Below the pieces are notes generated by a model, which made no database searches, was not told where the DNA came from, and saw only the letters and a program-made list of their open reading frames with translations. From contig NC_092680.1 in the NCBI RefSeq assembly GCF_964355755.1, positions 124,001 through 188,000 of the forward strand: a stretch of 64,000 bases of DNA. Reading direction: 5' to 3'. The stretch is from Antedon mediterranea. Lineage: Eukaryota > Animalia > Echinodermata. Below, piece by piece: positions 41,972-63,861 of the stretch (within the stretch, counting starts at the first letter, position 1; each line of letters starts with the position of its first letter). The translations under genes were made by a program, and so were the position numbers.

Positions 41972-63861
<21,890 letters not shown>

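What the first reader, a model, noticed from the sequence alone, without database searches (positions are those of the whole stretch)
46079..46100. Pervasive Tc1/mariner-type excision footprints (TA->TACTGTA/TACAGTA) appear to be reshaping the non-coding DNA
Seen: among well over a hundred 17-bp units of form GTCTAC-TA-TC(C/T)CCTTT, one reads GTCTAC-TACTGTA-TCTCCTTTT (46085-46091), an exact 5-bp gain not templated by its neighbours. Matching empty/filled pairs occur at 2955, 3626, 9257 and (as TACCGTA) 56109. Outside arrays I count by eye roughly 25-35 each of TACAGTA and TACTGTA, against about 7 expected from base composition (rough estimate). They were not noticed in the coding exons. The 66-mer and 32-mer units contain one, so some pre-date array expansion. 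Established: these are the canonical footprints of CAG...CTG-ended Tc1/mariner transposons. Inference: footprints far outnumber resident elements, implying either massive insert-and-excise cycling or an undescribed transposase/repair activity that writes these heptamers at TA sites as a genome-wide mutational signature.
Basis: partly seen in the sequence, partly recalled or inferred. Interest (0 to 1): 0.8.

Follow-up and report, generated by a model that had tools for sequence, protein, structure and literature searches.

The report
Transposon exit scars in feather-star introns
In this stretch of feather-star DNA the word TACAGTA (or its reverse, TACTGTA) is about five times too common outside coding sequence and appears as a 5-base gain at a TA inside repeat copies, so it is likely the scar left when jumping genes cut themselves out, piled up to about one per thousand bases by a process that would need no new enzyme.

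Summary
The enrichment is real: 56 TACAGTA/TACTGTA outside tandem arrays against 11-23 expected (Markov orders 0-4), first of 32 TA-NNN-TA words. An unbiased scan of repeat copies recovers four of the five claimed +5 gains at TA. Corrections: three copies lie in coding exons; 46085 and 3626 have local slippage or template-switch routes; two of nine TACCGTA/TACGGTA are ends of a resident MITE; some copies ride in a high-copy Helitron-like repeat. Best reading (0.7): accumulated end-joining scars of TA-targeting cut-and-paste transposons. Scars outnumbering residents needs only excision at 100-300 times the point-mutation rate per copy, not a new activity. Not shown: a CAG-ended donor element (none in the window, no genome held), outgroup polarity, or segregating scars (one individual; 0.1-0.2 expected, none seen). 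The footprint sequence is known from Sleeping Beauty; I found no paper on its natural genome-wide build-up in 10 searches, but this scan has noted the same pattern before in Trichoplax, fungi and diatoms. The DNA is from a feather star (Antedon).

The parts
46085..46091 (.). Focal TACTGTA: +5 gain at TA in one of about 167 units of the 17-bp array; a sister +5 unit TACTATA at 46174 opens a slippage-plus-substitution route
2955..2961 (.). TACAGTA, +5 gain at TA in the 23-bp array; CAGTA also occurs in the unit
3626..3632 (.). TACTGTA, +5 gain in the 23-bp array; also one arm of an 8-bp inverted repeat (template-switch route possible)
9257..9263 (.). TACTGTA, +5 by eye in the diverged 32/65-bp array, three mismatches beside it; not recovered by the strict scan
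56109..56115 (.). TACCGTA, clean +5 difference between two copies of a 32-bp duplication; polarity unknown
59035..59041 (.). TACTGTA, further +5 difference between two 75-bp copies; the shorter copy has GA, not TA, at the site
7836..7847 (.). Compound word TACTGTACAGTA: two opposite-orientation scars sharing a TA (not a simple tandem duplication); a single case, 0.65 expected by chance
26460..26725 (.). Resident 262-bp MITE with CCG ends, 16-bp perfect terminal inverted repeats and TA on both sides; accounts for 2 of 9 TACCGTA/TACGGTA
16135..16854 (.). 716-bp GG-ended element inserted at the TA of C-TA-G in the 54-bp array (empty site found 62 times); 14-bp inverted repeats, 12/14; no Pfam hit in three ORFs; candidate kind of donor for TAGGCCTA
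29447..29466 (+). Run of TAGGC(T/C)TA units in METTL9 exon 1, read as Val-Gly-Leu-Gly-Leu-Gly-Leu; aligns to a 5-residue gap in the Anneissia orthologue
29690..29795 (.). Dense cluster of TAGGCCTA, TAGGCTA, TAGCCTA and CTAG in METTL9 intron 1
41788..41800 (.). Compound TAGCCTAGGCCTA near the likely first exon of the myosin-I gene
452..1911 (+). Very high-copy Helitron-like element (5' TC, 3' hairpin and CTAG, A|T site; label from recalled anatomy), absent on the other haplotype; carries 2 TACTGTA, 2 TAGGCCTA and 1 TACATGTA that other family copies appear to share
1..64000 (.). Window-wide: 53 TACAGTA/TACTGTA in 41,683 bp non-coding non-array DNA (1.27/kb; introns 1.3-1.8/kb, intergenic 35.0-41.6 kb 0.32/kb), 3 in CDS

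Best explanation
TACAGTA/TACTGTA is about five times too common in this feather star's non-coding DNA and occurs as +5 gains at TA, and it is likely the accumulated scar of CAG-ended, TA-targeting cut-and-paste transposons whose excision breaks were rejoined by end joining. Inferred steps: an element inserts at TA and duplicates it; on excision the transposase would cut 3 bases inside each end, leaving CAG overhangs that pair around one mismatch and are repaired to TA-CAG-TA or TA-CTG-TA (shown for Sleeping Beauty, not here); the 5-bp scar is nearly neutral in introns, can drift to fixation and lasts until one of its bases mutates, whereas the element moves on or is lost. CCG-ended elements (one MITE is resident) would give TACCGTA/TACGGTA the same way. 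A second family of GG(C)-ended TA-targeting elements would give TAGGCCTA (+6) and TAGGCTA/TAGCCTA (+5); it prefers C or G beside the TA, and each scar rebuilds such a site, so these chain up near gene starts and, being +6, can enter coding sequence in frame. Arrays and a Helitron-like repeat then copy some scars further.
For: Enrichment 56 vs 10.9-22.7 and 53 vs 6.6-9.5. The top three of 32 TA-NNN-TA words are all of the form TA-X-N-X'-TA, as pairing of two identical 3-base overhangs predicts. 4 of 7 distinct 5-bp gains in repeat copies are TA to TA-C-N-G-TA, chance 0.0012 each. 28:28 strand symmetry with all three genes on +. Same sequence as the canonical Sleeping Beauty footprint made by NHEJ (10.1101/659086; PMC6943129; passages). 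Two SB minor footprints are also above expectation, TACTA/TAGTA 147 vs 110.5 and TACGTA 11 vs 5.6, though TACATA is not (59 vs 65.6). TA-flanked CCG-ended and GG-ended elements are resident. 5 compound GG-type scars vs 0.2 expected; 8 of 13 non-compound TAGGCCTA have C left or G right vs 26% background, P=0.008. Lineage-specific: TACAGTA is not among the top words in any of 14 ARNT loci of 8 kb or more from other animals.
Against: No CAG-ended TA-flanked element in the window (best end pair 11/25) and no transposase seen. No segregating scar: 0 of 5 heterozygous small indels in 1.4 kb of unique flank, six sites intact on both haplotypes, none among 12 of 17 listed indel rows in 10.6 kb, though only 0.1-0.24 were expected. 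One-mismatch neighbours show an excess of 14-22 (195 vs 173-181, P=0.05-0.17), below the 46 that long steady-state decay predicts. Flanks show no clear Tc1-type AT-rich target logo. Two of the four recovered gains (46085, 3626) have local alternative routes. Copies in the Helitron-like repeat gave no 5- or 6-bp deletion row in other family copies among 12 of 14 shown, so they are not independent local events. The resident GG-ended element ends in GGG, and TAGGGTA/TACCCTA is seen only 3 times.
Confidence: 0.7

Rival explanations
1. Ordinary local mutation: slippage, inverted-repeat template switching and CpG decay produce the word, and arrays and a high-copy Helitron-like repeat multiply it.
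For: 46085 can be reached from array variants present at 46016 and 46174; 3626 is an arm of an 8-bp inverted repeat; 60838 is TACTATA to TACTGTA by one substitution (sequence); the Helitron-like family appears to share its copies; one TACTGTA indel among 65 in other animals' loci is a tandem duplication.
Against: Only 3 of 56 sites sit in a 5-bp tandem duplication; nearby inverted arms 5 of 56 vs 21 of 325 controls; no shared flanks among the 56. The CpG-decay partner TACCATA/TATGGTA is not enriched, 9 vs 8.3. 56109 has no local template.
Confidence: 0.1
2. The word is a selected signal (DNA-binding protein site or microRNA seed match) that is gained and kept in gene bodies.
For: Higher in introns and 3' UTR (1.3-1.8/kb) than in one intergenic stretch (2 in 6.3 kb, P=0.005, post hoc); few one-mismatch neighbours; a regulatory role was proposed for the related ACAGT repeat in Trichoplax (PMC2871265, passages).
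Against: 28:28 strand symmetry argues against an RNA-level role; selection does not explain +5 gains inside satellite units; density in the ARNT 3' UTR (1.82/kb) equals that in its introns (1.81/kb).
Confidence: 0.08
3. An element-free activity (a nuclease or domesticated transposase plus templated repair) writes these words at TA sites.
For: No CAG-ended donor in 64 kb; excess of about 43 words against 0 residents.
Against: The added bases match transposon ends where residents exist (CCG MITE, GG element); the ratio needs only excision at 100-300 times the point-mutation rate; I know of no such activity (recall) and found none in the searches.
Confidence: 0.06
4. The words are left-over ends of decayed MITEs whose terminal repeats begin CAGTA, not repair scars.
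For: True for the CCG MITE at 26460-26725 (2 of 9 sites); two short inverted pairs (6424-6450, 8085-8100) look like collapsed elements.
Against: No shared inward sequence among the 56 sites (best 10 vs null maxima 8-17) and no matching end pairs within 8 kb; ends do not explain +5 gains at intact empty sites.
Confidence: 0.06

Closest known systems
Canonical Sleeping Beauty (Tc1-type) excision footprints TACAGTA/TACTGTA (10.1101/659086 and PMC6943129; passages read)
   Same: Identical 7-bp sequences, +5 at a TA, both central variants; two of the minor footprints (TACTA/TAGTA, TACGTA) are also above expectation here.
   Different: There they are single experimental events from a known transposase; here about one per kb fixed in natural DNA, with no donor element or transposase identified and no repair pathway shown.
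Genome-wide DNA-transposon excisions in rice (PMC4423477; passages read)
   Same: Excision as a natural source of small indels in a genome.
   Different: Rice excisions are mostly imprecise (8 of 94 perfect; deletions and filler) and fewer than insertions; here the signal is one stereotyped scar far outnumbering residents.
ACAGT microsatellite of Trichoplax (PMC2871265; passages read)
   Same: A genome-wide excess of the same 5-base period, noted as unusual.
   Different: Described as tandem repeats and proposed as a transcription-factor site; the words footprint and excision do not occur in that text. Here the word is mostly single and intronic.
PHIS (PIF/Harbinger, ISL2EU, Pangu, NuwaI/II) transposons (PMC4482050; passages read)
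   Same: Ends often begin with G or GG, short target duplications; the nearest described home for the GG-ended element at 16135-16854.
   Different: Their duplications in the passages seen (AT, ANT, CWG, C|TNA|G) do not match TA in C-TA-G; no transposase is present to place it, and a TAGGCCTA footprint is not described in what I read.

Membership tests
Tc1/Sleeping Beauty-type canonical excision footprint | TA + three terminal bases (CAG or CTG) + TA, both forms present | tested here: met
   28 and 28 outside arrays; the two are reverse complements, so equal numbers are also expected from random orientation
Tc1/Sleeping Beauty-type canonical excision footprint | Net +5 at a pre-existing TA relative to an empty site | tested here: met
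   2955, 3626, 46085 (and CCG-type 56109) recovered automatically; two have alternative local routes
Tc1/Sleeping Beauty-type canonical excision footprint | A cognate CAG...CTG-ended, TA-duplicating element in the genome | tested here: inconclusive
   None in the 64-kb window; whole genome not held
Tc1/Sleeping Beauty-type canonical excision footprint | Gain is the derived state, segregating or polarised by an outgroup | tested here: inconclusive
   Majority polarity only in arrays (1 vs 152 at 46085); no segregating case, with 0.1-0.24 expected
Tc1/Sleeping Beauty-type canonical excision footprint | AT-rich symmetric target preference around the TA (recalled feature) | tested here: inconclusive
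   Flank base frequencies close to all-TA background over 112 flanks
Tc1/Sleeping Beauty-type canonical excision footprint | Made by a DD(D/E) transposase and NHEJ | not testable with these tools
   No transposase in the window; needs experiments
CCG-ended TA-duplicating MITE (pogo/Tc2-like; label recalled) | Terminal inverted repeats starting CCG, flanked by TA | tested here: met
   16/16 inverted repeat, TA both sides, 26460-26725
CCG-ended TA-duplicating MITE (pogo/Tc2-like; label recalled) | Empty site and autonomous partner | not tested
   Both read-laying runs were used on other stretches
PHIS (PIF/Harbinger-related) for the GG-ended element | Group-typical target duplication (3 bp, or AT) | tested here: inconclusive
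   CCTAG on both sides allows 2-5 bp; inverted repeats are in register with TA
PHIS (PIF/Harbinger-related) for the GG-ended element | DDE transposase and Myb/SANT genes | tested here: not met
   No Pfam family in three ORFs; a 716-bp non-autonomous copy would lack them, so this does not place or exclude it

The most novel reading that the evidence does not exclude
In crinoids, stereotyped transposon excision scars are a major fixed small-insertion class (order of one per kb of intron, so of order 100,000 per genome if this window is typical), with two families split by genomic compartment: CAG-type scars in gene bodies and self-regenerating GG-type scars at gene starts, where the in-frame +6 scar has written new amino acids (Gly-Leu repeats) into a conserved protein's N-terminus.
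Probability: 0.4. Interest if true: 0.7.

Novelty: new variant of a known kind. Interest (0 to 1): 0.5.

Why it matters
If right, the most over-represented short words in this animal's non-coding DNA are a fossil count of past transposon excisions, readable where the elements themselves are gone. That gives a way to measure long-term excision rates and germline end-joining fidelity from k-mer counts, warns motif-finders that such words need not be regulatory, and shows a route by which transposons add DNA, and with the +6 scar even amino acids, without staying. The footprint chemistry itself is textbook, and this scan has met the pattern in other genomes, so the new part is the scale, the second (TAGGCCTA) class and its entry into a coding exon.

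Tried and rejected
Whole genome: not held, so all statistics rest on 64 kb. Reads: only 4 runs of one sample, as contigs; laying them on 50200-60830 and 1-2880 showed no segregating scar, but about 15 SNPs predict only 0.1-0.2, so I treat this as uninformative about ongoing activity. Polarising with copies of the Helitron-like repeat gave no 5- or 6-bp deletion rows among 12 of 14 shown. CpG decay of CCG scars as the source of the CAG word: rejected. Template switching and 5-bp tandem duplication as general sources: not enriched. Search for CAG-ended TA-flanked residents and shared terminal repeats: none; the CAG-ended MITE at 47247-47580 has an 8-bp duplication (7/8), not TA. Correlation of either word class with CpG depletion in 83 bins: not significant (P=0.42 and 0.08). 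Eighty ARNT loci of other animals: no enrichment in the 14 of 8 kb or more; 4 short loci flagged for TACAGTA at P<0.01 uncorrected (L056 and L057 near-identical, L060, L072); among 65 indels between related loci one TACATGTA gain (L054 vs L053) and one TACTGTA that is a tandem duplication: too few to use. Ten paper searches found no report of natural genome-wide build-up of these words or of TAGGCCTA as a footprint; the library lacks most subscription journals, and supplements were not read.

Full report
Context. The window is animal DNA with three intron-rich genes on the + strand: ARNT (exons 2694-26312), METTL9 (29382-34288) and a class-I myosin (exons 51125-63861 in the window); exon coordinates were set by eye and checked for open frames and AG/GT ends (Pfam Myosin_head for one exon; the ARNT name rests on my reading of the translated exons). 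The last METTL9 exon is 66/66 identical to a protein named for Antedon mediterranea and 79% to Anneissia japonica, so this is a feather star. No whole genome is held. About 17 kb is tandem array.

Is the word enriched? Yes. Outside arrays (46,522 bp) there are 28 TACAGTA and 28 TACTGTA. Counted on both strands, 56 are seen against 10.9, 10.0, 12.9, 15.6 and 22.7 at Markov orders 0-4; at order 4 it is the most over-represented 7-mer. At order 5 the self-trained expectation is 42.7 because the motif feeds its own 6-mers; with the motifs left out of training the non-coding count is 53 against 6.6-9.5 at orders 2-5, which errs the other way. All have the form TA, X, middle, complement of X, TA. 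The excess is not generic to animals: in 14 ARNT loci of 8 kb or more from other animals none of these words stands out.

Are they gains at TA? A scan of 21 arrays and short duplications for 2-12-bp gains, blind to motif, gave 7 distinct 5-bp events after I merged overlapping descriptions and dropped one substitution artefact (30623): 2955, 3626, 46085, 56109 (all TA to TA-C-N-G-TA), 46174 (TACTATA), 4015 (three copies of one event) and 9380. A random 5-bp insertion makes the pattern with probability 0.0012, so even 2 of 7 has P=3e-5. The cases differ in quality. 56109 is clean but unpolarised. At 46085 one filled unit stands against 152 empty ones, yet a unit one substitution away (46174) and a +TA unit (46016) give a slippage route; equally 46174 could be a mutated copy of 46085. 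3626 is an arm of an 8-bp inverted repeat, and CAGTA at 2955 occurs in the unit. 9257 failed the strict scan and has three mismatches next to it; 59035 is a further imperfect pair. The 66-mer and 32-mer units carry the word in every copy, as reported.

Where are they? Coding exons hold 3 in 5,588 bp (26220, 52521, 59793), 0.54/kb against 1.27/kb in non-coding DNA; this is neither clearly depleted (P=0.08) nor clearly above the coding background of 0.85 (P=0.055). Introns and the ARNT 3' UTR carry 1.3-1.8/kb, the intergenic stretch 35.0-41.6 kb only 2 in 6.3 kb (P=0.005, one region, post hoc). The GG-type words are nearly the mirror image: none in 12 kb of unique ARNT intron, 14 in 28-30 kb around the METTL9 start, 3 at the myosin start, 5 in the intergenic stretch and 4 in 14 kb of myosin intron. 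Five GG-type words share a TA with another (0.2 expected), and 8 of 13 isolated TAGGCCTA have C on the left or G on the right (26% background, P=0.008). Since TAGGCCTA itself puts G after the first TA and C before the second, each scar would rebuild the preferred site. In METTL9 exon 1 a run of such units reads Val-Gly-Leu-Gly-Leu-Gly-Leu and aligns to a 5-residue gap in Anneissia; the region is poorly conserved, so the gap position is soft, and translation of this N-terminus rests on a database gene model.

Donors. A TA-flanked MITE with 16-bp perfect CCG-starting inverted repeats lies at 26460-26725; its ends are 2 of the 9 TACCGTA/TACGGTA. A 716-bp GG-ended element sits at the TA of C-TA-G in the 54-bp array, whose empty site occurs 62 times; it ends in GGG rather than GGC, so it would give TAGGCCTA only if two bases of each end were kept. 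No CAG-ended TA-flanked element was found among 712 end pairs, and the 56 sites share no inward sequence.

Reads. Four runs, one sample, contigs only. On 50200-60830 unique DNA showed about 8 SNPs and no scar-type indel among 12 of 17 listed rows. On 1-2880 the second haplotype lacks the whole 452-1911 Helitron-like element and differs by 7 SNPs and 5 small indels, none a scar; six TACAGTA sites are on both haplotypes. Other copies of the element gave no 5- or 6-bp deletion row among 12 of 14 shown, so its five words probably travel with the family. From the excess density (0.001 per bp) a steady state implies about 0.007 scars per substitution, so 0.1-0.24 segregating scars were expected: the null says little. 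One-mismatch neighbours are 195 against 173-181 (P=0.05-0.17), an excess of 14-22 where long steady state predicts 46; the background absorbs part of this, but it hints that the scars are younger than saturation or are regenerated, and it is the main result that a selected-motif reading could claim.

Rivals tested. CpG decay of CCG scars would enrich TACCATA/TATGGTA equally; it is 9 vs 8.3. Nearby inverted arms (5 of 56 vs 21 of 325) and 5-bp tandem duplications (3 of 56) are not in excess. Equal strand counts within same-strand genes argue against an RNA-level signal.

Mechanism. Sleeping Beauty cuts three bases inside its ends, and end joining of the overhangs leaves TACAGTA or TACTGTA; footprints of Tc1/mariner elements copy 2-4 terminal bases and vary with cell type (10.1101/659086; PMC6943129; passages only). 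I infer the same here. That is within rates I recall for active DNA transposons. What would be special is long-lived activity with precise germline end joining, in contrast to rice, where 8 of 94 excisions were perfect (PMC4423477, passages). Selection against full elements in introns, with scars tolerated, may explain the gene-body bias; older DNA in these introns is an equal candidate.

Novelty. The footprint is known. Ten searches (listings only unless named) found no paper on its natural accumulation or on TAGGCCTA; the nearest is the ACAGT repeat of Trichoplax, read there as a possible regulatory site (PMC2871265, passages). PMC4482050 (passages) gave no matching group for the GG-ended element. 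No supplements were read. Earlier notes of this scan report the same reading in Trichoplax, two fungi and two algae (unchecked AI notes, not support), including chaining of scars; I ran the compound test after seeing them. None was found for this genome.

Verdict. Observation largely right with corrections; footprint origin likely (0.7) but unproven without a donor or polarised indels; no new enzyme needed. New variant of a known kind; interest 0.5.

Noticed in passing
window 452-1911: Very high-copy Helitron-like element that is present on one haplotype and absent on the other (three contigs join 451 to 1912), so the family is recently active; a second 5' end lies at 35954-36003.
   Followed up: partly
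window 29447-29466: TAGGC(T/C)TA run in METTL9 exon 1 encoding a Gly-Leu repeat absent from the Anneissia orthologue; a possible case of in-frame scars adding amino acids.
   Followed up: partly
window 16135-16854: 716-bp GG-ended non-autonomous element with a TA (up to CCTAG) duplication inside the 54-bp array; superfamily unplaced.
   Followed up: partly
window 47247-47580: MITE with CAGTGG-type ends and a near-perfect 8-bp duplication, hAT-like by recalled anatomy; CAG-ended but not TA-duplicating.
   Followed up: partly
window 6424-6450 and 8085-8100: Short TACAGTA...TACTGTA inverted pairs that look like collapsed CAG-ended elements.
   Followed up: no
window 35609-36382 and 38023-38724: Two 78%-identical copies on the minus strand that look like exons of a small gene family (possibly C-type lectin, by eye); not counted as CDS in my tests.
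   Followed up: no
window 21140-22850: Element with a 48-bp palindromic minisatellite at one end and subterminal inverted repeats, ending near CTAG; Helentron-like by recalled anatomy.
   Followed up: no
window 2891-61401: About 17 kb of the 64 kb is intronic minisatellite (periods 17-67 bp), many arrays 97-99% homogeneous.
   Followed up: no
window 156: Heterozygous 14-bp indel two bases from the TACAGTA at 148-154.
   Followed up: no
L054 (about 233) vs L053; L049, L056, L057, L060, L072: Short ARNT loci of other animals with a few TACAGTA or TACATGTA above expectation, and one +6 TACATGTA difference between related loci; hints that other lineages carry related scars.
   Followed up: partly
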